Source: Escherichia phage NTNC80A. Taken from it: 43,714 bases of DNA. Of this stretch, positions 1 to 33,425 are shown piece after piece. The DNA lies in sequence record OP018999.1; one strand, written 5' to 3'. Each line of letters begins with the position of its first letter. The first letter of the stretch is position 1. The position numbers and the translations under genes were made by a program. The notes below the pieces were generated by a model that had not been told where the DNA came from, did not search any database, and saw only the letters and a list, made by a program, of their open reading frames with translations.

Positions 1-819
1 GTGGCTAGCGAGTTCGAGAATGGTAGGCTGATTGCGTACGATTTGTCTCAGACCCAAGGGTACACGGGGAATATGCGGTCTGCTGTGTCTGACATGCAGT
101 TCCATTCCACTAATATTGAAGGCTTCACACCACGGGACTTCTTCTATGACCTAGGACACTTCCCTACCTCTTACACTAATGGTTCTTTTATCATGAAGCA
201 TTGGCGAGAAAAAGACTTACAGGTACAATGGTATAATGGTAAAGCATTCATACGGCTACATGAAGAAGATGGCCGTGTAACACTTACCAGTAAAGAGGGC
301 CTCGCTTTGTATGACTTTCGTGCTACAAAAGACGTGACGTTCAAGGGTCGCAACTTTGTATTCAAAAACGATGCAAGTGCAGACGTATTGAAGTGGTTCG
401 GCGGTTCAGGAAATATCTCCACGAAAGGCAACATCTCACCTATGGTAGATGGGGTTCCCTCTCTAGGTACAAATTCCTATCGCTGGGGTGCAGTGCATTC
501 AGTAAATGGGACGTTACAAACCTCTGATGGTAGGCTAAAGGAAATACATGATATTAAACAAGAAGAACTTGATGCTGGGCTTGAATTGTCAGCAAGCCTA
601 ATCAAATATCGTTGGGATGGAGGAGAAAAGTTCCACTTTGGTTGTATCGCCCAAGAGGTAATGTTAATCATGGAGAAACATAAGCTAGACCCATTACAGT
701 ATGGAATGGTTCAGTATGATGAAGAGGCAGACATCTTTAGTGTAAACTACGCTGAATTGAACAGCTTCTGCATCGCAGCTCTGTCTAGGAGGTTGAATGC
801 CATTGATCAAATCAGTTAA
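1..819 (+). CDS. tail fibre / receptor-binding protein with C-terminal intramolecular-chaperone (peptidase S74-like) domain
   Basis: ORF starts with GTG at base 1 and ends TAA 817-819. C-terminal ~100 aa carry SDGRLKEI...FHFGCIAQEV...YAELNSF, the Ser-Lys autocleaving chaperone signature of phage fibres/endosialidases. The 5' end may be cut by the window; no SD is visible across the circular junction. Confidence 0.6.
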   Translation: MASEFENGRLIAYDLSQTQGYTGNMRSAVSDMQFHSTNIEGFTPRDFFYDLGHFPTSYTNGSFIMKHWREKDLQVQWYNGKAFIRLHEEDGRVTLTSKEGLALYDFRATKDVTFKGRNFVFKNDASADVLKWFGGSGNISTKGNISPMVDGVPSLGTNSYRWGAVHSVNGTLQTSDGRLKEIHDIKQEELDAGLELSASLIKYRWDGGEKFHFGCIAQEVMLIMEKHKLDPLQYGMVQYDEEADIFSVNYAELNSFCIAALSRRLNAIDQIS

Positions 820-946
820 GCAAAGTGCTGTACGCCAGAACACAGAAGAACTTATTCAATCAGGACGTGACCCTAAGCAGGCCTATGCCATTGCCAAGGA
901 TGTACAACGTCGTGCCATGAAGAAACCTTCTGCATCTTCTGCGTAG
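797..946 (+). CDS. hypothetical small basic protein (49 aa), last ORF before putative genome terminus
   Basis: ATG 797 follows an in-frame TGA; stop TAG 944-946. Overlaps the 3' end of the fibre ORF in another frame. Product MPLIKSVKQSAVRQNTEELIQSGRDPKQAYAIAKDVQRRAMKKPSASSA. No clear SD. Confidence 0.3.
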   Translation: MPLIKSVKQSAVRQNTEELIQSGRDPKQAYAIAKDVQRRAMKKPSASSA

Positions 947-1099
947 CAGGTAATATCTTAGTGTACACAAGGGCAGGCTTAGGTTTGCCCTTAGTGTATT
1001 CCAAAGGAGGTGGTATGTTATCTTTGTTGTGTATACTCAGTGATGTACTAGGTCGTAAGAGGTACATTCTTAGTGAAGACCAAATAAGGGATGAGAAGA

Positions 1100-1363
1100 T
1101 ACGGAGGTCGCTCACAAAGTAACCAAAGTCAAAATTTTGATGTAGGCGTGTGTCAGCTCTCTCGCCCTCGCCCTCGCCGGGACGTCCCCATAGGGTGCCT
1201 AGGCATTTCTAGGGCAGCGGGAGGGCCGCCACGGGCCTTTCTTAGTGAGGGCCAAAGGTTGCCTAGGCTAGCCGGAGGAGGGCCGAGGAGGGCCATTCAG
1301 GGCCGCTTGACAGCGTGTGTGGGCGTGGGCTATCTGTCCGTTTGTCGCTACGCTCCGCACTCA
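1100..1363. other. GC-rich repetitive tract, candidate terminal-repeat / concatemer-junction region
   Basis: Abrupt GC-rich non-coding DNA with short repeats (CTCGCC x3, GCCTAGG x2, GAGGGCC x3) between the last late gene and the first early promoter, where T7-group genomes carry their terminal redundancy. Confidence 0.35.
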
Positions 1364-1659: not shown

Positions 1660-1675
1660 GTCTCACATGTTAGAC
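1660..1675. repeat. imperfect copy (15/16) of the 16-bp palindrome GTCTCACATGTGAGAC
   Basis: Sequence gtctcacatgtTagac. Confidence 0.5.
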
Positions 1676-3198: not shown

Positions 3199-3264
3199 AC
3201 TTAACAGGGCGTTACTTGTTAGCGCCCGATTAAGTTTATCTCAATGAAACAAATAGGTGACTAT

Positions 3265-4149
3265 ATGACTACTGAAAACATCCTCGTTTCTGTTCGTGAA
3301 GCTGCAACCGCTGAAATTAAGCAACACTTAGACAATATCGGCACTTCTTATCTCCGTGTTGGCGCTTGTCTTAATGAGCTACGCGGTGACTTTGAAGGTC
3401 AAAAAGACTTTTTGGCTTATGTAGAATCGGAGTTCGGCATCAAGAAAGCACAATGCTACAAGCTGATGAGCGTAGCCCGTGTCTTTGAAGGTGATGACCG
3501 TTTCAAAGGTGTGGCGATGCGTGTAATGCTGGCCCTTGTTCCTTTCGCTGATGAAAGTATCATCATGGAGAAGGCCGCAGAACTCGCCGCAGATGGCAAA
3601 TTGGACACTAACGCCGTAAACGCCCTGATTGAGCCTAAGAAAGAGCCAAAGGCCGAAACGGTACAATCTAAGGCTGAGGCGGTAAAACCGCAGGAGAACG
3701 TGACTGAGGCCGCAGAATCACAGGAAACGCAAGCGCCGCAGGTAGTTCCGCCAGTGAGTGAGCCGGAGGCTGACGAATCAGCACCGTGGGAAGAGGGAAG
3801 CAAGCCGGAAGCGCCAAAGGCCGCGCCACTGGACAACACGGCTAACACTGAGAACGCCGCCATGTCTGGCCTGCTGGCGCAGATTAAGTCACTGACTGAG
3901 CAATTACAGGCAGCTAACGACCGCATCGCCGCCCTAACCAGTGCACGCGAAAGCAAGAAAGCAGCCGCGCCTATGCTTCCACAGTTTAAATCTTCTTGCT
4001 TTTACGCTCGCTTAGGCTTGAGCGCGGAGGAGGCAACGAAGAAAACAGCAGTGAACAAGGCACGCCGTGAACTGGTTAAGCTGGGATACGGTGAAGGCCA
4101 TGAGGCATGGGCTTTAATATCTGAGGCAGTAGAAGAATTAACTAAGTAA
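3265..4149 (+). CDS. early hypothetical protein (294 aa): globular N-domain, acidic/Pro-rich linker, coiled-coil C-region
   Basis: ORF track 3244..4149; ATG 3265 has the better SD (GGTGA). Central segment KKEPKAETVQSKAEAVKPQENVTEAAESQETQAPQVVPPVSEPEADESAPWEEGSKPEAPK is low-complexity. No kinase motifs seen. Confidence 0.6.
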   Translation: MTTENILVSVREAATAEIKQHLDNIGTSYLRVGACLNELRGDFEGQKDFLAYVESEFGIKKAQCYKLMSVARVFEGDDRFKGVAMRVMLALVPFADESIIMEKAAELAADGKLDTNAVNALIEPKKEPKAETVQSKAEAVKPQENVTEAAESQETQAPQVVPPVSEPEADESAPWEEGSKPEAPKAAPLDNTANTENAAMSGLLAQIKSLTEQLQAANDRIAALTSARESKKAAAPMLPQFKSSCFYARLGLSAEEATKKTAVNKARRELVKLGYGEGHEAWALISEAVEELTK

Positions 4150-6840: not shown

Positions 6841-6848
6841 TACTAATA

Positions 6849-6878
6849 GGCCATTCCTTCGGGAGTGGCCTTTTCTTT
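6849..6878 (+). terminator. intrinsic terminator after the RNAP gene
   Basis: ggccattcc-ttcg-ggagtggcc: 9-bp stem with UUCG tetraloop, then TTTTCTTT. Confidence 0.7.
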
Positions 6879-6913: not shown

Positions 6914-6929
6914 GTCTCACATGTGAGAC
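6914..6929. repeat. 16-bp perfect palindrome GTCTCACATGTGAGAC
   Basis: Exact palindrome ending 2 nt before the phage promoter at 6932. Confidence 0.8.
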
Positions 6930-6931
6930 TT

Positions 6932-6954
6932 ATTTACCGGACACTATAGGAGAG
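6932..6954 (+). promoter_or_regulatory. phage RNAP promoter (SP6-type)
   Basis: atttaccggacactataggagag; +1 G at 6949. Confidence 0.7.
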
Positions 6955-7095
6955 CCGTCGGAGACGGGAAAGAAAGGGAATATAAAGAATATAAAGGAAG
7001 TAATAGGTATTAAAGGTTATATAGGATTACCTAGGAATACCTATTACCTTCTTCCTTCCTCTTATTACTACTTAGAGGAAGGGCAGACCTAGGTC
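6955..7095. other. AT/purine-rich inter-promoter region, candidate primary origin of replication
   Basis: Region with inverted repeat aggaagtaataggtat / atacctattaccttcttcct, bracketed by two phage promoters just downstream of the RNAP gene; same position as the T7 primary origin. Confidence 0.35.
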
Positions 7096-7111
7096 GTCTC
7101 ACATGTGAGAC
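7096..7111. repeat. 16-bp perfect palindrome GTCTCACATGTGAGAC
   Basis: Exact copy, 5 nt upstream of the promoter at 7117. Confidence 0.8.
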
Positions 7112-7116
7112 TTCGT

Positions 7117-7139
7117 ATTTACCAGACAGTATAGATAAG
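7117..7139 (+). promoter_or_regulatory. phage RNAP promoter (variant)
   Basis: atttaccagacaGtatagataag; +1 G at 7134. Confidence 0.6.
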
Positions 7140-7296: not shown

Positions 7297-9285
7297 ATGG
7301 CTATTATTCAGAATGTACCGTGTCCTGCTTGCCAAAAGAACGGACATGATATTACTGGCAATCATTTAATGATCTTTGACGATGGGGCAGGATACTGTAA
7401 CCGTGGTCACTTCCATGATAACGGTAAACCTTATTACCACAAGCCGGAAGGTGGCATCGAGATAACCGAGTTACCTATTACTGGCAATATCAAATATACA
7501 CCTTCTCAATTCAAAGAAATGGAGAAGGAAGGGAAGATAAGCGACCCTAAGTTGCGCGCCATCGCACTTGGTGGTATGCGTATGAAAGACCGTTGGGAGG
7601 TTATGAATGAGCAAGAAAGGGCAGACCAAGAAGCCGAGTGGAAACTCGATGTTGAATGGTTCCTCACGCTTAAGCGTAAGAACCTTGTATCCCGTCACAT
7701 TCGAGGCGACATCGCTGCAATGTATGATGTGCGCGTCGGACATGATGAAGAAGGCCGAGTCAACCGTCACTACTATCCTAGATACGAAAAGGGTGTGCTC
7801 GTGGGAGCAAAGTGCCGGACGCTGCCGAAGGATTTTAAGTTCGGTCACTTAGGTAAACTCTTTGGTATGCAAGACCTTTTCGGGATGAACACTTTGTCTC
7901 ACGTGTTAGACAAGGGAAGACGAAAGGATTGCTTGCTTATTGTAGGTGGTGAACTGGATGCACTAGCAGCGCAGCAGATGCTCCTTGATTCTGCCAAGGG
8001 TACTAAGTGGGAAGGTCAGCCATACCACGTGTGGTCTGTCAACAAAGGTGAATCTTGCCTTGAAGAGATAGTGCAAAACCGTGAACACATCGCCCAATTC
8101 AAGAAGATTATCTGGGGCTTCGATGGTGATGAGGTAGGACAGAAGCAGAACCAGCAAGCGGCTCGCCTGTTTCCCGGCAAATCCTATATCCTTGAGTACC
8201 CTTCTGGTTGCAAAGATGCCAACAAGGCATTGATGGCTGGCAAGGCTAAAGAATTTGTGGATGCTTGGTTTAATGCAAAGTCATCTGATGAAGTCTTTGG
8301 TAGCCAGATTAAATCTATCGCATCTCAAAGGGATAAGCTCAAGGCTGCACGTCCAGAACAAGGGCTGTCATGGCCTTGGCCTAAGCTAAACAAGGTAACG
8401 CTAGGTATTCGTAAGAACCAACTTATCATTGTAGGCGCAGGCTCTGGTGTAGGTAAGACTGAGTTCCTTCGTGAAGTAGTTAAGCACCTCATTGAAGAAC
8501 ACGGTGAATCTGTAGGCATCATTTCTACAGAAGACCCGATGGTCAAGGTGTCCCGTGCTTTTATCGGTAAGTGGATTGATAAGCGTATTGAGTTACCGCC
8601 AACCAACGACCCGAAAGAAGATGGATACCGTGAGGTGTTCGACTACACCGAGGAAGAAGCTAACGCCGCCATTGATTATGTAGCTGATACAGGTAAGCTG
8701 TTTGTAGCTGACCTAGAGGGTGACTATTCGATGGAAAAGGTAGAGCAAACTTGCCTAGAGTTTGAGGCTATGGGCATTTCTAATATCATCATTGATAACT
8801 TAACGGGGATTAAATTAGATGAGCGTGCTTTTGGTGGGAAGGTTGGTGCACTTGATGAATGCGTCAAGCGGATTGGTACTATCAAAGACCGACACCCGGT
8901 TACTATATTCCTTGTATCACACCTTACACGTCCTCCGGCAAACCGTACCCAACACGAAGAAGGTGGCGAGGTTATCCTTTCTGACTTCCGAGGCTCAGGC
9001 GCTATCGGATTCTGGGCATCTTACGCCTTGGGGATTGAGCGTAACACAAGAGCTGAAACGCTTGACGAAAGGACTACCACGTACATCTCATGTGTCAAAG
9101 ACCGCGACCAAGGTATCTACACTGGAACCAAGGTCATGCTTAAGGGTGACATTCAAACCGGACGTTTAATGGAACCACAAGCCCGTACTAAGTCATTTGA
9201 TACAGGTGAAGCAAGGCAACAAGAAGTGCCGGATTTACCGGACACTATAGAAGAGACAACCTTTGACGATGAACAGGAGTTTTAA
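7297..9285 (+). CDS. DNA primase/helicase (T7 gp4-like)
   Basis: N-terminal zinc ribbon CPACQKNG...CNRGH, Walker A GAGSGVGKT, acidic C-terminus ending DDEQEF. Confidence 0.95.
   Translation: MAIIQNVPCPACQKNGHDITGNHLMIFDDGAGYCNRGHFHDNGKPYYHKPEGGIEITELPITGNIKYTPSQFKEMEKEGKISDPKLRAIALGGMRMKDRWEVMNEQERADQEAEWKLDVEWFLTLKRKNLVSRHIRGDIAAMYDVRVGHDEEGRVNRHYYPRYEKGVLVGAKCRTLPKDFKFGHLGKLFGMQDLFGMNTLSHVLDKGRRKDCLLIVGGELDALAAQQMLLDSAKGTKWEGQPYHVWSVNKGESCLEEIVQNREHIAQFKKIIWGFDGDEVGQKQNQQAARLFPGKSYILEYPSGCKDANKALMAGKAKEFVDAWFNAKSSDEVFGSQIKSIASQRDKLKAARPEQGLSWPWPKLNKVTLGIRKNQLIIVGAGSGVGKTEFLREVVKHLIEEHGESVGIISTEDPMVKVSRAFIGKWIDKRIELPPTNDPKEDGYREVFDYTEEEANAAIDYVADTGKLFVADLEGDYSMEKVEQTCLEFEAMGISNIIIDNLTGIKLDERAFGGKVGALDECVKRIGTIKDRHPVTIFLVSHLTRPPANRTQHEEGGEVILSDFRGSGAIGFWASYALGIERNTRAETLDERTTTYISCVKDRDQGIYTGTKVMLKGDIQTGRLMEPQARTKSFDTGEARQQEVPDLPDTIEETTFDDEQEF
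9233..9255 (+). promoter_or_regulatory. phage RNAP promoter embedded in the 3' end of the helicase gene
   Basis: atttaccggacactatagaagag; +1 G at 9250; simultaneously encodes DLPDTIEE. Confidence 0.6.
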
Positions 9286-9446
9286 TGGGAATTATTAAAC
9301 CAGTATTGAATATCGGTATTGAGATCCTATTCATGCTTGTGATCGCAGATTATGCTGCACGATATGGCTTCAAGAAAGCAGTGAAACTTATCGTTGCATC
9401 TGGTTTTATGATGTCAATGTTCTTTATTGTAACACGCTTTATCTAG
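9285..9446 (+). CDS. small hydrophobic membrane protein (53 aa), hypothetical
   Basis: ATG overlaps the helicase stop (TAATG). MGIIKPVLNIGIEILFMLVIADYAARYGFKKAVKLIVASGFMMSMFFIVTRFI has two hydrophobic segments. Confidence 0.4.
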   Translation: MGIIKPVLNIGIEILFMLVIADYAARYGFKKAVKLIVASGFMMSMFFIVTRFI

Positions 9447-9463
9447 TGTATTTATCAGGGCTT

Positions 9464-9479
9464 GTCTCACATGTGAGAC
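9464..9479. repeat. 16-bp perfect palindrome within an extended hairpin
   Basis: gcttgtctcaca/tgtgagacaggc gives a ~12-bp stem, followed by CTCTTATT; could act as a terminator or processing site. Confidence 0.7.
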
Positions 9480-9519
9480 AGGCTCTTATTAAGTACATTA
9501 ACTAATTGGAGATAATATT

Positions 9520-10215
9520 ATGACTAAACTTGTACTGAATTTAGGGGATAAGGTTCGTAATATTCGCCAATCGTCTAACTACAAAGGGCTGATTGGCTTC
9601 ATTGTAGAAGAGAAGCAAGGCAAGCATGGAGATAAGTGGGTTGTCAAATATCAGAATGGCAAGTTTGCTACTTACTTCAAGGAACTAGCACACATTAGTC
9701 TTGAGAAAGTAGAAACACCTACACATCAATGCAAGTGTGTACACGATGAGGTTTGCGATAAATGTGCTCGCCAGATGCTTAAGAATTTCCTAGCTCCTCT
9801 TTATTATGGTGCTGGTCCTCAAACACTAGCAGAGTACATGGCAGAAAAGAAAACCACACTCAAGAAAGAGCGTCGCAATGTAATCACTGGTAAGACTCAA
9901 AGTGAGATGATTAAGCAATGTGGCACTGCATTAGGTGTTACGCAGTTTAACACTCGTGCTCTTGGTAAATCCACAGGACAAGCTATGGTGAAAATTGGTG
10001 AAGCTATGATGCACCCAAATGTACCTGTGCGAATCTTGGATATTGACCATGCAATCACAGAGCATGGCACATCACGACGTGTAGCTAATACACATTTTGC
10101 CAACACTATAGAAGGTATTATCCGTAAGCAAGGGTTGAAAGGTCTTCACATCTTGAATGGTGAAGAATTACTGTACCTTCCTATCGTTACTGAAGAAACC
10201 TACGTGAATATCTAA
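9520..10215 (+). CDS. hypothetical protein (231 aa) with Cys cluster
   Basis: ORF track; SD GGAGA upstream; contains CKCVHDEVCDKCARQ (possible metal site). Confidence 0.6.
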   Translation: MTKLVLNLGDKVRNIRQSSNYKGLIGFIVEEKQGKHGDKWVVKYQNGKFATYFKELAHISLEKVETPTHQCKCVHDEVCDKCARQMLKNFLAPLYYGAGPQTLAEYMAEKKTTLKKERRNVITGKTQSEMIKQCGTALGVTQFNTRALGKSTGQAMVKIGEAMMHPNVPVRILDIDHAITEHGTSRRVANTHFANTIEGIIRKQGLKGLHILNGEELLYLPIVTEETYVNI

Positions 10216-10718: not shown

Positions 10719-10884
10719 ACACAGTCTTAAGATGTTCGATGGTCACGAAGACCTGCAAGCACAAATCACTAACCAAGCCTTCCTGTTCGCACAGTTAACT
10801 ATGGCTGAGGCCAAGAAGAATAGTCTCACTCGTGAACAGGTTATCAAGGAAGGTGAAGTGAAACGTAAGATTCGCAGTCGATAA
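10711..10884 (+). CDS. hypothetical protein (57 aa)
   Basis: In-frame ATG 10711 overlapping the previous stop; the longer ORF-track form (10567) would overlap the upstream gene heavily. Confidence 0.4.
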   Translation: MSKHSLKMFDGHEDLQAQITNQAFLFAQLTMAEAKKNSLTREQVIKEGEVKRKIRSR

Positions 10885-10890
10885 GTCAAG

Positions 10891-10922
10891 GGTTGTCCAA
10901 CGTGTTGGACAGCCTCTTTATC
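10891..10922 (+). terminator. hairpin with U-rich tail upstream of the DNA polymerase gene
   Basis: ggttgtccaa-cgtg-ttggacagcc stem-loop followed by TCTTTATC. Confidence 0.45.
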
Positions 10923-10945
10923 ATATTGATTGGAGGATTAACTTT

Positions 10946-13565: not shown

Positions 13566-13994
13566 ATGGCTAATCGTAAAGAGATGGAGATTGTTAAGTT
13601 AGATAATGGCTGTCTCGTGCAGACTAGCCATAAGCTCAATCCTGATGGTTACTTTCGTAAGCGTATATGGCATGAAGGTCGCTTGCAGCACATGATGTAC
13701 CATCGTTACATGTGGATTCAAAAGCATGGTGAGATACCAAAAGGGTATGAAGTTGACCACAAATGTAAGAATCGTGCATGTTTCAATGTTGACCATTTAC
13801 AATTACTTAAGTCGTCTGAGCATAGAACTAAAGACAATACAGGCCGTCATGGTGATAAGAAGCAAGCTGCATATTTAATTTGGAAGCAGCATTGCGGAGC
13901 TATTACAGGAGCTGCCCTAGCTGAATTGGTTGGTGTATCATTCAGTGCTACGTGTAAGTGGATTAGAGGCTGGAGGACTAATGAGCACCAGTGA
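13566..13994 (+). CDS. HNH homing endonuclease
   Basis: VDHKCKNRACFNVDHLQL HNH motif; free-standing gene right after the polymerase; SD AGGAGA. Confidence 0.85.
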   Translation: MANRKEMEIVKLDNGCLVQTSHKLNPDGYFRKRIWHEGRLQHMMYHRYMWIQKHGEIPKGYEVDHKCKNRACFNVDHLQLLKSSEHRTKDNTGRHGDKKQAAYLIWKQHCGAITGAALAELVGVSFSATCKWIRGWRTNEHQ

Positions 13995-14891: not shown

Positions 14892-15037
14892 TAGGTCGAT
14901 TTAGTTCGGCCTATGATTGTAAAGTGTTGAACCGCCTATTGTGCATGTTGCACATCCCCATTCTCTAACTGGGGCTTTCTAGTGAGTACATGCGTGTGCT
15001 CAGTACAAAGCTAACAAACAACAGGAGGAATAAATTA

Positions 15038-15844
15038 ATGGCACGTAACTTTGACTTCGGCGCAGAAATTACTCAATCCACTGGTGGTGTATTTAAGAAC
15101 CCTGAAGTGGGCGACCATGAGGCAGTTATCTCTGGCATCATTCACGTTGGTTCCTTCCAAGACATCTTCAAGAAAGGTAACACCACCGAGGTGAAGAAGC
15201 CTGCTAACTTCGTTCTTGTTAAGGTAATCCTGATGGGTGACGATGACAAGAACGAGGATGGCTCTCGTATGGAACAGTGGATGGCTGTGCCGCTCAAGTC
15301 TGGTGACAAGGCAACGCTGACCAAGTTCCTGAATGCAGTTGACCCGAAAGAATTGCTTGGTGGCTTCGATGACTTCATCGGCGAGTGCATGACTGTTAGC
15401 ATGGTTGGTGATGATAAGGGTGGCAAGAACGAAGATGGCACTTTCAAGTATGTTAACTGGAAAGGCTTCGGCGGTATGCCTGATAAACTCAAGAAGCTGG
15501 TTCTGGCTCAGGTGGAAGAAGAAGGCTTAACCATGACAGGCCACATCACCTTCGACAAGCTGACCCGCGAAATCATCGACAGCATCCCTGCACATCTCGT
15601 TCGTCAGTACCTGCTGAACGAAACACCACGCGGTAAGAACCTGTCCGTTGCTGGCTCTCATGTTGAAGCCATCATCGCTGAGGCTCGCGCTGCCGATGCT
15701 GAGTGGAAGAAGGCCAAGAAGAAAGACAATGACGCAACTCCAGAAGACCGTAAGCCTCTGGACACAGGTGCCTCTGTCCCGCAGGAAGTACCGGAAGCCC
15801 CTAACGTAGCGGCACCGGAGATGGACGAAGACTCGGAATATTGA
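15038..15844 (+). CDS. hypothetical protein (268 aa) with acidic C-terminal tail; possible ssDNA-binding/replisome protein
   Basis: ATG 15038 with SD AGGAGGAA (ORF track 14990); own promoter; C-terminus PEMDEDSEY; N-terminus MARNFDFGAEIT. The SSB assignment is a guess from position and tail. Confidence 0.7.
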   Translation: MARNFDFGAEITQSTGGVFKNPEVGDHEAVISGIIHVGSFQDIFKKGNTTEVKKPANFVLVKVILMGDDDKNEDGSRMEQWMAVPLKSGDKATLTKFLNAVDPKELLGGFDDFIGECMTVSMVGDDKGGKNEDGTFKYVNWKGFGGMPDKLKKLVLAQVEEEGLTMTGHITFDKLTREIIDSIPAHLVRQYLLNETPRGKNLSVAGSHVEAIIAEARAADAEWKKAKKKDNDATPEDRKPLDTGASVPQEVPEAPNVAAPEMDEDSEY

Positions 15845-15851
15845 ATAAACC

Positions 15852-16298
15852 ATGACTTCCGATCAGATAAAAGAGAAGATACAGAATAATATTGTTGTAT
15901 CTGAAACTGGATGCTGGTTGTGGCAGAAGTCTATAGCTACTAATGGATATGGTAACATCTGCGTAGGTAAAGGAAGAAACAGAGCAGTTCACAGGGTTGC
16001 TTGTGAACTGTATCACGGAGTTCCACCTACGCGTATGGATGCCGTTCATTCTTGTGACAATAAGGCTTGTTGCAATCCAGAACACCTGTCTTGGGGAACA
16101 AGGAGTCGTAATGAAATAGAGGCTGTGAGAAGGCTAGGTAAGTCACATAAACTTAAACTACATGAAGCAGCATACATTAAGTTCTCCGGTTTACCTACTA
16201 AAGAATTAGTAGGTATGTTCTCTGTGAGTAAAGATTTAATTAACAGAATTAAGCGTGGTGTCTTATGGGCACACGTAACCAAGGGGGATTTAAGATGA
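15852..16298 (+). CDS. HNH homing endonuclease
   Basis: HSCDNKACCNPEHLSWGT HNH motif plus C-terminal helix-turn-helix-like region. Confidence 0.85.
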   Translation: MTSDQIKEKIQNNIVVSETGCWLWQKSIATNGYGNICVGKGRNRAVHRVACELYHGVPPTRMDAVHSCDNKACCNPEHLSWGTRSRNEIEAVRRLGKSHKLKLHEAAYIKFSGLPTKELVGMFSVSKDLINRIKRGVLWAHVTKGDLR

Positions 16299-16513
16299 AA
16301 GTACAAATTGTAACCCTGCACTGTAAGAAAGGCATTACAACCCTAGGCGGCACAACTTTTCACTCCTTCTCTGAAGGGGAGACATACGCCGACCTGCACT
16401 ACATCTGGCGCGATGGGCAGCACGTGGTGAACTACAGCGACCCCGCTACGGGGAAACGCCACGGCGTGTCGCTTCCGGCGCACGACATCGCTCAGGTGAA
16501 CACAGTTTTATAA
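16295..16513 (+). CDS. hypothetical protein (72 aa)
   Basis: ATG 16295 overlapping the HNH stop (ATGA); SD AAGGGGGA; MKVQIVTLHCKKG... Confidence 0.5.
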   Translation: MKVQIVTLHCKKGITTLGGTTFHSFSEGETYADLHYIWRDGQHVVNYSDPATGKRHGVSLPAHDIAQVNTVL

Positions 16514-16520
16514 AGTCTCA
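16505..16520. repeat. 16-bp perfect palindrome GTCTCACATGTGAGAC
   Basis: Exact copy, 15 nt upstream of the promoter at 16536. Confidence 0.8.
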
Positions 16521-16535
16521 CATGTGAGACAAATC

Positions 16536-16558
16536 GGTGTCCGGTATTTACTGGACAC
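16536..16558 (+). promoter_or_regulatory. phage RNAP promoter (consensus)
   Basis: atttactggacactatagaagag; +1 G at 16553. Confidence 0.75.
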
Positions 16559-16617
16559 TATAGAAGAGAAGAATTTTAATCGGCGATAATGCCACAACTA
16601 ACAAAGGAGAATTTAAT

Positions 16618-16983
16618 ATGTTCAAGATTGAAACTATCGTAAACCGTGTTGTTAAAGGTGCTGATCTGGTATCCGTTGAGTCTTTCGTTATCGTCGATGA
16701 AGCCAACAAACTGGTAGCTGGCACTAAGGCTTACGATACCCGTGAAGAGGCTCAGGCTAAGATTGACAGCATGGGTAACTTCGCTGCTGGTCTGGAGTTC
16801 GCTCGTGCTTGCTTCCCTGAGCAGGCTGACAAAGCTCAGATTGGCAAGGCTAACATCGTAGCTGAGTATCTGGATTGGATTGCCGCTGGTAAACCGGTGA
16901 AAGAAGCTAAGGCTGAAGAAGCTGAGGCTCCGGTAGAAGTAGCTGCACCGGAAGCTCCGGTAAGCGAAGAAGAAGAGTTTTGA
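16618..16983 (+). CDS. small acidic protein (121 aa) ending SEEEEF, hypothetical
   Basis: Consensus promoter, strong SD (AAAGGAGA) and downstream terminator suggest high expression; C-terminal acidic tail with terminal Phe. Confidence 0.75.
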   Translation: MFKIETIVNRVVKGADLVSVESFVIVDEANKLVAGTKAYDTREEAQAKIDSMGNFAAGLEFARACFPEQADKAQIGKANIVAEYLDWIAAGKPVKEAKAEEAEAPVEVAAPEAPVSEEEEF

Positions 16984-30415: not shown

Positions 30416-33358
30416 ATGGCAATTGAACGTCAAGCTGTACAAGGTCTTGAAAAGGTGCAGCCGAGAGTTGCGCCAACACCTATGTCTTTCACACCACGAC
30501 AAGTGAGCATCTCTGGTGGTACAGATGCCTCCGGTAGTAGGTTCTTGGAAGACCTAGTAAATGCTGCAAGTAGCGTGGCTGATGTCACCACTGCTATCCT
30601 TAATCAGCAAGTAGAAGATGATAAGGTTCGCCAGATGGACAGGGCGCTGTCTGGCATGATGCCTTCGGAGGATGCAACGGTAGGTGGTGCTCGTGCTCAC
30701 ATGCTGGTTAGTTTACAAAATGATGTAATCGCACAGACAACTGCGCTACAGGCAGAAGCACAGCGGTTTCAAGGGAGTGACGAAGATTGGGAGAACTATG
30801 TAGTTCAATCACGTAACGATGTGCAGAATAGGCTGTGGCAAAGTTACCCAGAACTTCGTGGTGACAAAGATTCTATGAGGCTTGTCACTAACGCGTTCAT
30901 GGAGCAGCAACCTAGAATTACTGCCACGAGAGCAGAGGCTAAACTTCGTCAAGAAGAAGAAGCGCGAATGCAATCTATGCAGTCTCGTATTATCATGGCT
31001 ACACGGGATGTAGCACCTGATGCCACTGGTGCAGCACTCATTCAGCTACAGAAAGAAGCACTGGCGATGGGTCTTAGTAAACCTGAGTTTGATCAAATGG
31101 TTGCTAAGATTGCATCTGATAGGGCGGCAGTAGGCGATGATAGTCTTATTCAGGGAACCAAAGCACTGGTGGACGATAAAGGTGTCTCTTTGTACGACCG
31201 TGTTGGTGCTTTGCAAACTGGAGAGATTCAAGCTAACAGAGCTTGGGCTGCACAGAATCAGGTCGCCCTCTTCGAGAAGAAGGATGCAGCTATAAAGGCA
31301 TTCGATGCAGGACAACTTACTCGTGAAGAGTTACTTCAGGTGATGCAGAATCACAATGAACTAACTGGTGGCACTGCTTGGTCAGATAGCGAGATTAAGG
31401 TTATCTTCGATAGACAAGCTAAGTCTAATGCAGAGAAAGCAAAGCTCGAAGATCTCATTGCACGAGGTGAATCTGGGTCGCCTTTAGGTTTACAGGACAT
31501 CAGTAAGGATGACAGAAAAACATATGCTGAAGCCTTAGTTAGTACCTACACTAAGTTGGCAGAAGATGAAATTGCCCGTACTGGTGCAACTGGAGAACAG
31601 GCTGAAGCTATTCGCGGTAGGTATGAGCAGATGCGTTATCTTAAGCTAGGGCAGCAACTTATTGAAGACCCAATCATTAAGGAAAGATATTCGTCGCTTA
31701 TGCAATTATCCTCTGCCAACCTTAAAGAGATGAATGTTGAGCCTGAAGCATTACAGACCATCATGCGAGCGCGGGACTCTATTCCAGAGGATGCACGTCG
31801 TGCTGTCATGGGAGACAAAGAGTATGCCTTTGTAGAGAACTACGATCTAGCAACTCGCATGGGGTATAACGCAGGTCAAGCTATTGAGTTTGCACAGAAT
31901 GCCTCTCGTGGAGAGAAGCTACAAGGTTCTGTACTTAAAGAACTGAATGATGATGTAGATGGAGTTGTAAGTGATGTGGCAGGAGGTAGTTGGCTTACTC
32001 GTGGCGATAATATGAGTGAGATGGGTCGTGACATTATGATGGAGGAGGCAAGTACAATTGCGAGAGCAATGAAGGTTGCAGGTCATAATAATGATACGAT
32101 TAAACGCCATCTTAAATCATATTTGACTAGCCAGTATACACAACTATCAGAGGGTTTCTTTACTCAAGGTGTTCTGGTGAAAGGTGATGTACGAACATTA
32201 GGTGACACTATAGGAGTAAACCAGAATGACCTTCCTATGGCGCTACGTCAATATATGGATAACAACAAGCAAGCACTTCTTGATGCATCAGGTGGCTTAG
32301 AAGGGGGTGATTTGTATTTTGATGTAGACGCGCAGCGTGGACTCTTTACCATACGTGCAGGCTCTGGTCGTGTACCTGTTACGCAGGCAATGCCTTTGTC
32401 TGAAATCAAAGGTCAGTCCTTGCTTAAGCAAAGATATGATGCAGAGGTTAAAGCCCGTGATGAGGGGCGTAAGAATTTTGAAGCACAGCAAATGAGGATG
32501 TGGGGTGCAGGTGGCTACCAAGCACAACCGCCTGCAAAGACTACAGCCAAAACTGTAGGCTCCCGTGGTATTGCTGACTTCTTAATGTCACCTGCCTTTG
32601 CATCCGGTGAGAACCTACCAGCAAACTTTGAGTTTGGGTATAAGAGGAATAATATGGACTTCTACAATTATGTAGCCAAGGCTGAGAATAGTGCCAATGT
32701 GGGCTTTGATAGAGTAGCTGGTGTTTATACACCCTACAAAGATGCACATGGTCAGTCTGTTGGGTATGGACACTTCCTTACTGCTGAAGAGAAGAAGAAC
32801 GGGTATATTATGATTGGCACAGATAAAGTGCCATTTACTCCGGGACAATCTCAACTAACACCAGAAAGAGCTATGCTCCTTCTACAGCAAGACTTGAAGA
32901 GCCATGTGCCAAGCACTTCAGGGTGGGCTGTTCCCTTCGAAGAGATGCACCCAGGTGTTCAGCGTGGCCTTATGGATTTGTCATATAATCTAGGCAAAGG
33001 CGGTATCCAGAATGCACCGAAGGCATATGCTGCGTTTAAGGCTGGCAAGTTCACTGATGGGTTTATTGAGATGCTATCTACTGCATCTACTGAAGGTAAA
33101 CGTAGCACTGGCTTGTTGGTTCGTAGGGCAGAAGCCTATAACCTTGCACAGAGTGGAGGTGCTGTCCCTAAGATCAGTGAAGTAGAGACACGAGCAGATG
33201 GTTCCATGTATGTGAAGTTTGCAGGACAAATGTCAGAGGCTTTCGTAAGTAAATCAATCTACAATCAGATTGGTAAGGATGGGTGGATGCAAGTGTATCC
33301 TCCAAAGCAAGGTGCGCTTGCACCTAACACTCAGATTGGTAGAATCAAACTAAGCTAG
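30416..33358 (+). CDS. internal virion (ejection) protein with C-terminal lysozyme-like domain
   Basis: 980 aa; C-terminal YKDAHGQSVGYGHFL resembles the T4 lysozyme YKDTEGYYTIGIGHLL region. Confidence 0.85.
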   Translation: MAIERQAVQGLEKVQPRVAPTPMSFTPRQVSISGGTDASGSRFLEDLVNAASSVADVTTAILNQQVEDDKVRQMDRALSGMMPSEDATVGGARAHMLVSLQNDVIAQTTALQAEAQRFQGSDEDWENYVVQSRNDVQNRLWQSYPELRGDKDSMRLVTNAFMEQQPRITATRAEAKLRQEEEARMQSMQSRIIMATRDVAPDATGAALIQLQKEALAMGLSKPEFDQMVAKIASDRAAVGDDSLIQGTKALVDDKGVSLYDRVGALQTGEIQANRAWAAQNQVALFEKKDAAIKAFDAGQLTREELLQVMQNHNELTGGTAWSDSEIKVIFDRQAKSNAEKAKLEDLIARGESGSPLGLQDISKDDRKTYAEALVSTYTKLAEDEIARTGATGEQAEAIRGRYEQMRYLKLGQQLIEDPIIKERYSSLMQLSSANLKEMNVEPEALQTIMRARDSIPEDARRAVMGDKEYAFVENYDLATRMGYNAGQAIEFAQNASRGEKLQGSVLKELNDDVDGVVSDVAGGSWLTRGDNMSEMGRDIMMEEASTIARAMKVAGHNNDTIKRHLKSYLTSQYTQLSEGFFTQGVLVKGDVRTLGDTIGVNQNDLPMALRQYMDNNKQALLDASGGLEGGDLYFDVDAQRGLFTIRAGSGRVPVTQAMPLSEIKGQSLLKQRYDAEVKARDEGRKNFEAQQMRMWGAGGYQAQPPAKTTAKTVGSRGIADFLMSPAFASGENLPANFEFGYKRNNMDFYNYVAKAENSANVGFDRVAGVYTPYKDAHGQSVGYGHFLTAEEKKNGYIMIGTDKVPFTPGQSQLTPERAMLLLQQDLKSHVPSTSGWAVPFEEMHPGVQRGLMDLSYNLGKGGIQNAPKAYAAFKAGKFTDGFIEMLSTASTEGKRSTGLLVRRAEAYNLAQSGGAVPKISEVETRADGSMYVKFAGQMSEAFVSKSIYNQIGKDGWMQVYPPKQGALAPNTQIGRIKLS
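32195..32218 (+). promoter_or_regulatory. promoter-like sequence inside the internal virion protein gene
   Basis: cattaggtgacactataggag: 16/18 match to the SP6-type core. Confidence 0.4.
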
Positions 33359-33375
33359 TGGTATACTCAAGGTTT

Positions 33376-33391
33376 GTCTCACATGTGAGAC
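33376..33391. repeat. 16-bp perfect palindrome (18 bp with flanks)
   Basis: tGTCTCACATGTGAGACa between two internal virion protein genes. Confidence 0.8.
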
Positions 33392-33425
33392 ATGCCTTCA
33401 TGAATGACACTAACTAGGAGGTAAC

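What the first reader, a model, noticed from the sequence alone, without database searches (positions are those of the whole stretch)
6914..7111. Identical 16-bp perfect palindrome GTCTCACATGTGAGAC at five loci plus one imperfect copy, mostly just upstream of phage promoters
Exact copies lie at 6914-6929, 7096-7111, 9464-9479, 16505-16520 and 33376-33391; a 15/16 copy is at 1660-1675. Three sit 2-15 nt upstream of phage promoters (6932, 7117, 16536). Terminators or RNase III sites do not need identical sequence, so exact conservation suggests a sequence-specific factor: a dimeric DNA-binding regulator, a specific processing nuclease, or a nicking/homing enzyme. The palindrome contains ACATGT and GTCTC/GAGAC restriction-site-like cores.
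Basis: seen in the sequence. Interest (0 to 1): 0.65.

Follow-up and report, generated by a model that had tools for sequence, protein, structure and literature searches.

The report
Conserved operator palindrome of SP6-like phages
The repeated 16-base palindrome is a hallmark of SP6-like phages and is most likely the docking site for a conserved early ParB/KorB-like DNA-binding protein encoded in the same genome; three family copies also cap T7-style RNase III processing hairpins.

Summary
GTCTCACATGTGAGAC occurs exactly five times (one coordinate was mis-stated: 16515-16530). Three further family members lie at 1660, 7896 (inside the primase/helicase gene) and 10895. Chance expectation is 0.04.

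The window is a complete Vectrevirus (K1-5/K1E-like) genome. Every SP6-like phage examined (about 34) carries 3-10 copies of a variant, GTC[C/T][A/C]AC-N2-3-GT[G/T][A/G]GAC, at about eight orthologous positions. T7 has none.

Two layers are superimposed.

1. The copies at 9464, 10895 and 33376 cap long hairpins homologous to T7 RNase III sites. Of 21 predicted base pairs, 18 show compensatory changes.
2. The stem sequence stays constant even in isolated copies upstream of promoters and inside genes. It co-varies with one amino acid of a conserved early protein (window 3265-4149). Lys66 goes with half-site base 5 = C; Asn, His or Arg66 goes with A. This was the only perfectly separating column among about 3650 tested in nine conserved proteins.

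Best reading: a KorB-like set of dispersed operators. Binding itself is untested.

The parts
1660..1675 (.). Site 1: variant palindrome GTCTCACATGTTAGAC in the left-end non-coding region, about 500 bp from the physical left end and upstream of the early sigma-70-type promoters (1699-1728, 1743-1771).
   Evidence: It is orthologous in K1-5 (559), SP6 (493), UAB78, PP1, phD2B, Pm5460 and Era103. In several phages it lies 8-11 nt upstream of a TTGACA. The window is permuted by about 1161 nt relative to K1-5.
6914..6929 (.). Site 2: exact palindrome after the RNA polymerase gene terminator, spanning -35..-20 of phage promoter P6932. It is an isolated 6-bp hairpin with no extended structure.
7096..7111 (.). 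Site 3: exact palindrome spanning -38..-23 of phage promoter P7117, upstream of the gene 1.1-like ORF. It is isolated.
7896..7911 (.). Site 4: GTCTCACGTGTTAGAC inside the primase/helicase coding sequence, encoding S-H-V-L-D. It is as close to the consensus as the reading frame allows, because TGA would be a stop codon.
   Evidence: It is conserved at synonymous positions in 12 phages. The codon is His (CAC) in phages whose half-site has C at position 5 and Asn (AAC) in phages with A there.
9464..9479 (.). Site 5: exact palindrome forming the apical stem-loop of a long hairpin (9444-9500) after the primase/helicase and small ORF.
   Evidence: Annotators of R4596 and Pm5460 labelled the ortholog a rho-independent terminator.
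9444..9500 (+). T7-type RNase III-like hairpin containing site 5. By homology, cleavage is predicted near 9489/9490.
   Evidence: RNAfold -29.5 kcal/mol.
10895..10910 (.). Site 6: family member of the other stem type, GTCCAACGTGTTGGAC, forming the apical stem-loop of hairpin 10875-10932.
10875..10932 (+). T7-type RNase III-like hairpin containing site 6.
16515..16530 (.). Site 7: exact palindrome directly after a stop codon, spanning -48..-33 of phage promoter P16546. It is followed by a second hairpin that pairs with the promoter core.
33376..33391 (.). Site 8: exact palindrome forming the apical stem-loop of hairpin 33356-33412, between the two large internal virion protein genes.
33356..33412 (+). 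T7-type RNase III-like hairpin. Its flanks AGTGGTATACTCAAGG...GCCTTCATGAATGACACTA are nearly identical to those of T7 R4.7. Cleavage is predicted near 33401/33402.
3265..4149 (+). Candidate cognate protein gene (294 aa; K1-5 gp6 / SP6 gp7 family, phrog_4571). It has an N-terminal ParB/KorB-like helix-turn-helix domain (residues 8-124), a disordered acidic linker, a long helix 195-231 and a C-terminal J-domain-like fold. Lys66 is the residue that co-varies with the motif.
6932..6954 (+). Phage promoter ATTTACCGGACACTATAG (+1 at 6949), 2 nt downstream of site 2.
7117..7139 (+). Phage promoter ATTTACCAGACAGTATAG (+1 at 7134), 5 nt downstream of site 3.
16546..16568 (+). Phage promoter ATTTACTGGACACTATAG (+1 at 16563), 15 nt downstream of site 7.

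Best explanation
The palindrome is a double-stranded DNA operator. It is bound as a dimer by the conserved early phage protein encoded at 3265-4149, whose N-terminal domain has a ParB/KorB-type helix-turn-helix fold. The host RNA polymerase makes this protein together with the phage RNA polymerase. About eight sites are spread over the genome:

- one next to the early host-type promoters;
- three abutting middle phage promoters, covering roughly -20 to -48;
- copies inside genes;
- three in intercistronic gaps.

The arrangement works like the KorB-OB network of IncP plasmids: one protein and many identical palindromes, setting or insulating transcription of the early and middle region. Repression or road-blocking at the abutting promoters is the more likely direction.

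Because the genome is compact and read on one strand, the same palindrome is also transcribed as a hairpin. At 9464, 10895 and 33376 it has been built into the apical part of T7-type RNase III processing hairpins, a part whose sequence is free to vary. These hairpins probably cut and stabilise the polycistronic mRNAs.

Shown here: the motif family and its orthologous positions, the RNA covariation of the three long hairpins, the fold of the protein, and the residue-base co-variation.

Inferred: actual binding, dimerisation, the regulatory direction, and RNase III cleavage.
For: 1. The motif is non-random and is a family hallmark. The window has 7 matches against 0.04 expected. In each SP6-like genome the only repeated 12-14-mers besides the phage promoter are variants of this palindrome. 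About eight orthologous positions are shared.

2. The constraint is on sequence, not only on pairing.
- The stem is identical in long hairpins, in isolated copies and in coding-sequence copies.
- Coding-sequence copies keep synonymous positions fixed. They even switch Asn to His to follow the genome's stem type, and use TTA where TGA would be a stop.
- The centre is always C-R-Y-G or C-A-N-T-G, a constraint that is itself symmetric.
- Some copies break RNA pairing on the sense strand yet keep both half-sites.

3. Protein and site co-vary. In 34 phages residue 66 of the gp6-like protein is Lys wherever half-site base 5 is C (GTCTCAC, GTTTCAC, GTCTCAT, GTCTCCT). It is Asn, His or Arg wherever base 5 is A (GTCCAAC, GTCTAAC, GTCTAGT).
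- The switch happened at least three times: in the enterobacterial clade, in BD5, and as a reversal in Vectrevirus.
- I predicted C at base 5 for four Colwellvirinae phages from Lys66 alone, before their genomes were fetched and scanned. The prediction held in all four.
- Further cases fit.
- Among about 3650 alignment columns of nine conserved proteins, this is the only column that separates the two groups perfectly.
- Lys with G:C and Asn with A:T is the usual major-groove pairing. That statement rests on established knowledge, not on a tool result.

5. Gene and motif occur together. T7 has neither.

6. The RNA layer is supported. Sites 5, 6 and 8 align with T7 R0.5, R1.1, R4.7 and R18.5 and fold alike. 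RNAalifold predicts 21 pairs, 18 of them with compensatory changes.
Against: - No binding data exist. The protein-site link is correlative.
- In KorB itself, operator specificity comes largely from residues outside the helix-turn-helix (my recollection of Khare et al. 2004). The analogy therefore does not guarantee that residue 66 reads a base.
- Half-site spacing differs by one base pair between and even within phages: 16-mer and 17-mer sites coexist in Pm5460. That is easier for an RNA hairpin than for a rigid dimer, although the long disordered linker could allow it.
- Positions 4:13 and 5:12 nearly always stay complementary. In SP6 and UAB78 the asymmetric form is mostly in the U.G orientation on the sense strand. 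This fits selection on the RNA hairpin.
- In the window, site 10895 kept the A-type stem although the protein has Lys66.
- The regulatory outcome is unknown. Ten of 13 phage promoters have no site.
Confidence: 0.62

Rival explanations
1. The element acts only as RNA. It would be a conserved stem-loop that punctuates the polycistronic transcripts: the apical part of RNase III sites, and elsewhere a stabiliser of 3' or 5' ends or the target of an unknown RNA-binding protein or nuclease. DNA binding by the gp6-like protein would play no part.
For: - Three copies cap hairpins homologous to T7 RNase III sites, with 18 of 21 pairs showing compensatory changes.
- Positions 4:13 and 5:12 co-vary through C:G, U.G and U:A.
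- Loop size varies between 4 and 5 nt.
- T7 RNase III sites also sit next to promoters and share sequence with each other.
- In BD5, Era103 and Vp670 the hairpin often lies 0-3 nt before a ribosome binding site.
Against: - A 6-7 bp hairpin is too short for RNase III. The isolated copies show no conserved extra structure.
- RNA function does not explain copies conserved inside the RNA polymerase, primase/helicase and ligase or kinase genes.
- It does not explain copies whose sense-strand pairing is broken while both half-sites are kept.
- It does not explain the symmetric constraint on the centre.
- It does not explain the single-residue co-variation in a helix-turn-helix protein.
- Lower stems drift freely by compensatory change while the apical stem does not.
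Confidence: 0.2
2. The gp6-like protein does bind the palindromes, but the purpose is not transcription control. The sites would act like parS or NBS sites for organising, compacting or positioning phage DNA. Alternatively they would mark replication origins: sites 2 and 3 flank the AT-rich region at the position of the T7 primary origin.
For: - The fold is that of ParB, Spo0J and Noc DNA-binding domains.
- Sites occur inside genes and far from promoters.
- Sites 2 and 3 bracket a 166-bp AT-rich and purine-rich segment between two promoters just after the RNA polymerase gene, as phi1.1A and phi1.1B do in T7.
- The C-terminal J-like domain suggests a partner protein.
Against: - The model and the Pfam scan show no ParB N-terminal CTPase domain, and no ParA partner is evident among the genes examined in the window.
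- A strictly lytic 44-kb phage has no obvious need for partition.
- The recurrent placement immediately upstream of promoters, both host-type and phage-type, in many lineages points to transcription.
Confidence: 0.2
3. The palindromes are transcription terminators or pause sites for the host or phage RNA polymerase, as some database annotators labelled them.
For: The consensus terminator scan lists 6914 and 7096 (6-bp stem, T-rich tail) and the extended stem at 10890-10915. The R4596 and Pm5460 records call the site-5 ortholog a rho-independent terminator.
Against: - The stem is short, with only 3 G-C pairs.
- The T-rich tail at 6914 and 7096 is just the ATTTA of the next promoter. It is absent from the SP6, Kpp-61, PP1 and Pm5460 orthologs.
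- A true terminator hairpin already sits at 6848-6871.
- Terminators do not require an invariant stem sequence or copies inside essential genes.
Confidence: 0.05
4. The identity of the copies reflects a mobile or self-homogenising palindromic mini-element (REP or MITE-like, or short-patch gene conversion), not recognition by a factor.
For: All copies in a genome share one stem type, and the type switches genome-wide, including in coding-sequence copies. Palindromes can self-correct by template switching.
Against: - The copies occupy the same eight orthologous positions in phages whose helicases are only 43-47% identical. They are therefore ancient and not recently mobile.
- Flanks of the isolated copies share no homology that could support conversion.
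- No transposase is present.
- Site 10895 escaped the switch.
- This model does not predict the matching amino-acid change.
Confidence: 0.05

Closest known systems
KorB and its OB operators on IncP-1 plasmids (RK2)
   Different: - The host here is a strictly lytic phage.
- The protein lacks the ParB N-terminal (CTPase) domain, and no ParA or IncC partner was seen.
- It carries a coiled-coil-like helix and a J-domain-like C-terminus instead.
- The site is 16-17 bp, GTCYMAC-N2-3-GTKRGAC, rather than TTTAGCSGCTAAA.
- Some sites double as RNA hairpins.
- Binding is unproven.
ParB-parS and Noc-NBS (chromosomal ParB family)
   Different: There is no CTPase or spreading domain and no evidence of partition or membrane tethering. 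The sites are concentrated in the early and middle transcription region.
Phage T7 RNase III processing sites (R0.3 to R18.5)
   Same: Sites 9464, 10895 and 33376 share the lower stem, internal loop and upper stem architecture and the flanking sequence ACUCAAGG...GCCUU(U/C)AUGA. They are intercistronic and often lie next to phage promoters.
   Different: - In T7 the apical stem-loop varies from site to site. Here it is an invariant palindrome.
- The same palindrome also occurs alone, without the lower stem, and inside genes.
- The upper stem is 2-3 bp longer than in T7.
- Cleavage is not demonstrated.
REP (repetitive extragenic palindromic) elements of enterobacteria
   Same: Short conserved palindromes in intergenic gaps of operons that act both as DNA protein-binding sites and as mRNA-stabilising hairpins.
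   Different: REPs are imperfect, number in the hundreds and are mobilised by RAYT transposases. The phage sites are few, occupy fixed orthologous positions and have no transposase.

Membership tests
T7-type RNase III processing site | Hairpin of about 55-60 nt with a lower stem, an asymmetric internal loop and an upper stem | tested here: met
   Met for 9444-9500, 10875-10932 and 33356-33412 (RNAfold; consensus fold with 18 of 21 pairs compensatory). It was also tested for the isolated copies at 6914, 7096, 16515 and 1660 and is not met there: only the 6-bp hairpin is conserved.
T7-type RNase III processing site | Sequence homology of the flanks to T7 RNase III sites (ACUCAAGG...GCCUUUAUGAUU) | tested here: met
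   Site 33376 is nearly identical in its flanks to T7 R4.7. Sites 9464 and 10895 align with more changes. The T7 site coordinates come from my memory of Dunn and Studier 1983; the RefSeq record lists no such features.
T7-type RNase III processing site | Cleavage by host RNase III in vivo or in vitro | not testable with these tools
   Needs transcript end mapping in rnc+ and rnc- hosts.
Intrinsic (rho-independent) terminator | Stable G+C-rich stem followed directly by a U tract, conserved across orthologs | tested here: not met
   The stem is 6 bp with 3 G-C pairs. The T-rich tail is present only where the next promoter's ATTTA abuts, at 6914 and 7096. It is absent from SP6, Kpp-61, PP1 and Pm5460 orthologs.
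KorB/ParB-type operator with cognate protein | Several copies of one 13-18 bp palindrome dispersed in the replicon | tested here: met
   Eight family members in the window and 3-10 in each of about 34 related phages.
KorB/ParB-type operator with cognate protein | The replicon encodes a protein with a ParB/KorB-type helix-turn-helix DNA-binding domain | tested here: met
   [not shown]
KorB/ParB-type operator with cognate protein | Specific binding of the protein to the palindrome | not testable with these tools
   Indirect support only. Residue 66 co-varies with half-site base 5 in 34 phages. It is the only such column among about 3650 tested. The blind prediction held in 4 of 4 phages.
KorB/ParB-type operator with cognate protein | ParB N-terminal (ParB/Srx, CTPase) domain and a ParA-type partner | tested here: not met
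   No such domain appears in the model or in Pfam. No ParA-like gene was seen among the window ORFs examined. The protein resembles only the DNA-binding domain, so I do not file it as a ParB or KorB family member, only as working like one.
REP/MITE-like mobile palindrome | Copies at variable, non-orthologous positions, with an associated transposase | tested here: not met
   The copies sit at the same eight positions from Vectrevirus to Pseudomonas and Vibrio phages. No transposase is present.
Host transcription-factor regulon site | The same motif recurs in host chromosomes | tested here: not met
   The exact 16-mer occurs in 75 loci of 185,579 species genomes, scattered over unrelated taxa. 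My back-of-envelope chance expectation is about 140. There was only one enterobacterial hit. Degenerate versions were not scanned.

The most novel reading that the evidence does not exclude
SP6-like phages (Molineuxvirinae, Colwellvirinae and relatives) run a previously undescribed KorB-like circuit. An early protein with a ParB-fold helix-turn-helix binds 3-10 dispersed identical palindromes next to host-type and phage-type promoters and inside genes. A one-residue specificity code operates: Lys66 reads C:G and Asn66 reads A:T at half-site position 5. This code has switched together with all operators at least three times. The operators are overprinted on RNA processing hairpins.
Probability: 0.55. 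Interest if true: 0.8.

Novelty: new variant of a known kind. Interest (0 to 1): 0.7.

Why it matters
SP6 and its relatives are classic phages. They are the source of a standard RNA polymerase and of many K1-specific and Klebsiella therapeutic phages. They lack the T7 proteins that shut off host transcription and tune the phage polymerase (gp0.7, gp2, lysozyme), and how they time gene expression is not known.

A conserved early DNA-binding protein with a fixed set of operators would be a candidate for that missing control. It would also be a very clean natural example of co-evolution between a regulator and its operators, with a directly testable one-residue code.

There is a practical side. 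The sites are currently unannotated or mislabelled as terminators. They also mark places where engineering of these phages, or reuse of their promoters, could carry a hidden binding site or a processing signal.

Tried and rejected
- **Chance:** rejected.
- **Known RNA family:** no Rfam match in the window.
- **Literature:** nine searches for the 16-mer, its variants, SP6/K1-5 RNase III, Molineuxvirinae and DUF3102 found nothing relevant. The SP6 genome paper could not be opened. The SP6/K1-5 comparative genome paper (J Mol Biol 2004) was not looked for, as it was assumed not to be held. An earlier description there cannot be excluded.
- **Host regulon:** the scan of bacterial genomes gave chance-level, scattered hits.
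- **Same 16-mer in a 129-kb GC-rich prophage-like contig (L025):** unrelated. It sits inside 36-bp GC-rich palindromes after a tail gene, and only 65,536 palindromic 16-mers exist, so coincidences are expected.
- **Comparisons from memory only, all poor fits:** the SP6 primase recognition site (5'-GCA-3'), the T7 class II pause signal ATCTGTT, the CRP, SlmA, MatP and LacI-family consensus sites, CRISPR repeats and N4 hairpin promoters.
- **Co-variation with the promoter sequence:** none; promoters differ among phages while the palindrome does not.
- **Function of other conserved unknown proteins:** no informative hits in Pfam or PHROGs for the ten tested, nor in the PDB sequence search for the three tested (3244-4146, 9520-10212, 14990-15841).
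- **Extended structure around the promoter-adjacent copies:** none conserved.
- **Two copies pairing with each other to make an RNase III duplex:** considered and left as unsupported speculation.

Full report
**What the window is.** It is a complete genome of about 43.7 kb from a K1-5/K1E-like phage (Vectrevirus, Molineuxvirinae). It is about 93% identical to database relatives over the 3-kb segment compared. All genes are on the + strand. The assembly is permuted by about 1161 nt relative to K1-5.

**The observation.** GTCTCACATGTGAGAC occurs exactly at 6914, 7096, 9464, 16515 and 33376. There is a one-mismatch copy at 1660 and a two-mismatch copy at 7896 inside the primase/helicase gene. That makes 7 matches against 0.04 expected by chance. 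A scan for the phage promoter found 13 sites. Only those at 6932, 7117 and 16546 have a palindrome just upstream, spanning -35..-20, -38..-23 and -48..-33 relative to +1.

**The motif is a hallmark of the whole SP6-like group.**
- De novo counting of repeated 12-14-mers was done in K1-5, SP6, UAB_Phi78, Kpp-61, Pm5460, PP1, Era103, BD5 and phD2B. Apart from the phage promoter, the only repeated family is a variant of this palindrome.
- The general form is GTC[C/T][A/C]AC, a centre of 2-3 bases, then GT[G/T][A/G]GAC. It occupies about eight orthologous positions: the left-end non-coding region, after the RNA polymerase terminator, before the gene 1.1-like ORF, inside the primase/helicase gene, after that gene, before the small gene upstream of the DNA polymerase, after an 82-codon gene, and between the two large internal virion protein genes.
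- The exact 16-mer in IMG/VR hits only SP6-like contigs, with one unrelated exception.
- Pseudomonas syringae phages whose helicase is only 43-47% identical still carry about nine copies of GTCTCAC-A(C/G)T-GTGAGAC in their first 19 kb.
- T7 has none.
- The motif is more conserved than the promoters, which differ among these phages.

**The RNA layer.**
- The copies at 9464, 10895 and 33376 sit at the tip of hairpins of about 57 nt.
- The flanks at 33376 (AGTGGTATACTCAAGG...GCCTTCATGAATGACACTA) are almost those of T7 RNase III site R4.7. The T7 coordinates come from my memory of Dunn and Studier 1983.
- The three window hairpins fold like T7 R0.5, R1.1, R4.7 and R18.5.
- I aligned 26 such sites from ten phages with the four T7 sites. 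The consensus fold has a lower stem, an internal loop and an upper stem. Of its 21 pairs, 18 show compensatory changes.
- These three are therefore very probably RNase III-type processing signals.

**Why RNA alone does not explain the motif.**
- The copies at 6914, 7096, 16515 and 1660 have no conserved structure beyond a 6-bp stem. That is too short for RNase III.
- In the long hairpins the lower stems drift freely by compensatory change, while the apical stem stays identical to the isolated copies.
- Copies are conserved inside genes. The primase/helicase copy keeps synonymous positions fixed in 12 phages. It encodes His (CAC) in phages whose stem has C at position 5 and Asn (AAC) in the others. 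It uses TTA where the consensus TGA would be a stop. The same pattern is seen in an RNA polymerase copy present in some phages.
- The centre is always C-R-Y-G or C-A-N-T-G, a constraint that is itself symmetric.
- A few copies break sense-strand pairing yet keep both half-sites.
- The stem type switches genome-wide between lineages: GTCTCAC, GTCCAAC, GTCTAAC.

**A candidate cognate protein.**
- I looked for residues shared by all phages with the GTCTCAC type and absent from the others. This pointed to the conserved early gene just upstream of the RNA polymerase gene. It is window 3265-4149, 294 aa, the K1-5 gp6 / SP6 gp7 family, phrog_4571.
- Residue 66 is Lys in every phage whose half-site has C at position 5. 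It is Asn, His or Arg where that base is A. This includes the distant Vibrio phage BD5, which has Asn and GTCTAAC.
- Vectrevirus is nested among Asn-type phages (79% identity to Kpp-61 in this domain), so the change occurred more than once.
- As a blind test I fetched four Colwellvirinae phages known only to carry a Lys66 homolog. All have C at position 5: HJG and Vp670 have GTCTCAC, D530 has GTTTCAC and phiY2 has GTCTCAT.
- Four more genomes fit. Kp7 has Asn and GTCCAAC. Reminis has Lys and GTCTCCT. ECBP5 has Arg and GTCTAGT. CB5A has a very different helix and a different palindrome, GTTCGAGATCTCGAAC.
- I tested about 3650 alignment columns of nine conserved proteins across 16 C-type and 17 A-type phages. 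Residue 66 of this protein is the only column that separates the groups perfectly.

**The fold of the protein.**
- An AlphaFold model built on 20 homologs is confident (pLDDT about 90) for residues 8-124 and 239-293.
- Residue 66 is the sixth residue of helix 61-74, which follows helix 46-57 after a three-residue turn. That is a helix-turn-helix.
- Foldseek lists ParB-parS, Noc and Spo0J-parS among its top hits, with weak E-values.
- Pfam gives sub-threshold DUF3102 hits in 9 of 13 orthologs. The viral structure library returns DUF3102 proteins.
- After a disordered acidic linker come a long helix and a C-terminal domain with a J-domain-like fold but no HPD motif.
- T7 has no homolog.

**Interpretation.** The palindrome is most likely a duplex-DNA operator of this early protein. 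It works like the KorB-OB network: one ParB-fold protein and many identical palindromes near promoters and inside genes.
- Lys with a G:C pair and Asn with an A:T pair is the common major-groove pairing (established knowledge).
- Because the genome is compact and read on one strand, the operator is also transcribed as a hairpin. At three gaps it has been incorporated into the part of an RNase III site whose sequence is free.
- The window's site 10895 kept the A-type stem after the protein became Lys66. This suggests that this copy now serves mainly as RNA.
- Not shown: binding, dimerisation, the direction of regulation, and RNase III cleavage.
- Points that favour an RNA contribution to the constraint: the near-universal complementarity of positions 4:13 and 5:12, the U.G orientation in SP6 and UAB78, and the 16- versus 17-bp spacing.

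**Other readings.**
- Terminator: short stem, and a T-tail supplied only by the next promoter and absent in orthologs.
- Mobile palindrome: the positions are orthologous across deep divergence.
- Host regulon: chance-level hits in bacterial genomes.
- Public records leave the sites unannotated or call one a terminator.
- I found no paper describing the motif or the protein. The original SP6 genome paper could not be opened, and the SP6/K1-5 comparative genome paper was not looked for.

Noticed in passing
window 16535-16560: Between site 7 and promoter P16546 lies a stretch (GGTGTCCGG) complementary to the promoter core (CTGGACACT), forming a 9-10 bp hairpin. The complementarity tracks the different promoter sequences of SP6, Kpp-61, phD2B, PP1 and Pm5460, so it is selected. 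Its function is unknown.
   Followed up: partly
window 6955-6968: A small hairpin (CCGTCGGAGACGG) at about +7 to +20 of the transcript from P6932 is conserved, with compensatory changes, in all relatives aligned. It may be a 5'-end stabiliser.
   Followed up: partly
window 6950-7095: A 146-bp AT-rich and purine-rich segment with short repeats and a 10-bp hairpin (7051-7082 region) lies between two phage promoters right after the RNA polymerase gene. This is the position of the T7 primary replication origin. It is bracketed by two palindrome copies.
   Followed up: no
[not shown]
   Followed up: partly
window 7896-7911; SP6 17752; Kpp-61 18779; PP1 5622 and 20123; Era103 5754 and 20860; phD2B 4901 and 18133: The copies of the motif inside these RNA polymerase, primase/helicase and ligase or kinase genes, in the phages with a 16-bp site, all lie in the same reading frame and encode S-(N/H)-x-L-D. 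The RNA polymerase copy of the Pseudomonas phage L091 (17-bp site) is in a different frame. The RNA polymerase copy is present at nucleotide level in some phages and absent in others that keep the same peptide.
   Followed up: partly
window 13566-13994 and 15852-16298: Two free-standing HNH endonuclease genes (Pfam HNH_3, E 6e-17 and 2.5e-11) are inserted in the DNA-metabolism region. Neither gene matched the close relative K1-5 in a tblastn comparison, and they occupy no conserved slot in the annotated relatives.
   Followed up: no
window 14990-15844 and 16618-16983: Two conserved proteins of unknown function end in acidic tails with a terminal aromatic residue (...EMDEDSEY and ...SEEEEF). 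From memory, the T7 gp2.5 and gp4 tails that contact the DNA polymerase look similar. The 284-aa protein may be the single-strand DNA-binding protein.
   Followed up: no
window 1-1161: The window start is not the physical genome end. K1-5 base 1 aligns at window 1162, and ORFs run off both ends of the window, so the assembly is circularly permuted.
   Followed up: partly
L025 964-1019 and 3004-3019; L148, L171 and other JAHISE01 contigs: The same 16-mer is a repeated core in unrelated genomes. In a GC-rich 129-kb prophage-like contig it sits inside 36-bp perfect palindromes. It has many copies in one Patescibacteria MAG, and four copies within 4 kb of an FCPU426 contig. These are probably coincidental palindrome families.
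   Followed up: partly
L062 (Era103) 7022-7072; L090 6735-6785: In Era103-like phages two copies of the palindrome stand in tandem, 35 nt apart, around a degenerate promoter-like sequence after the RNA polymerase gene.
   Followed up: no
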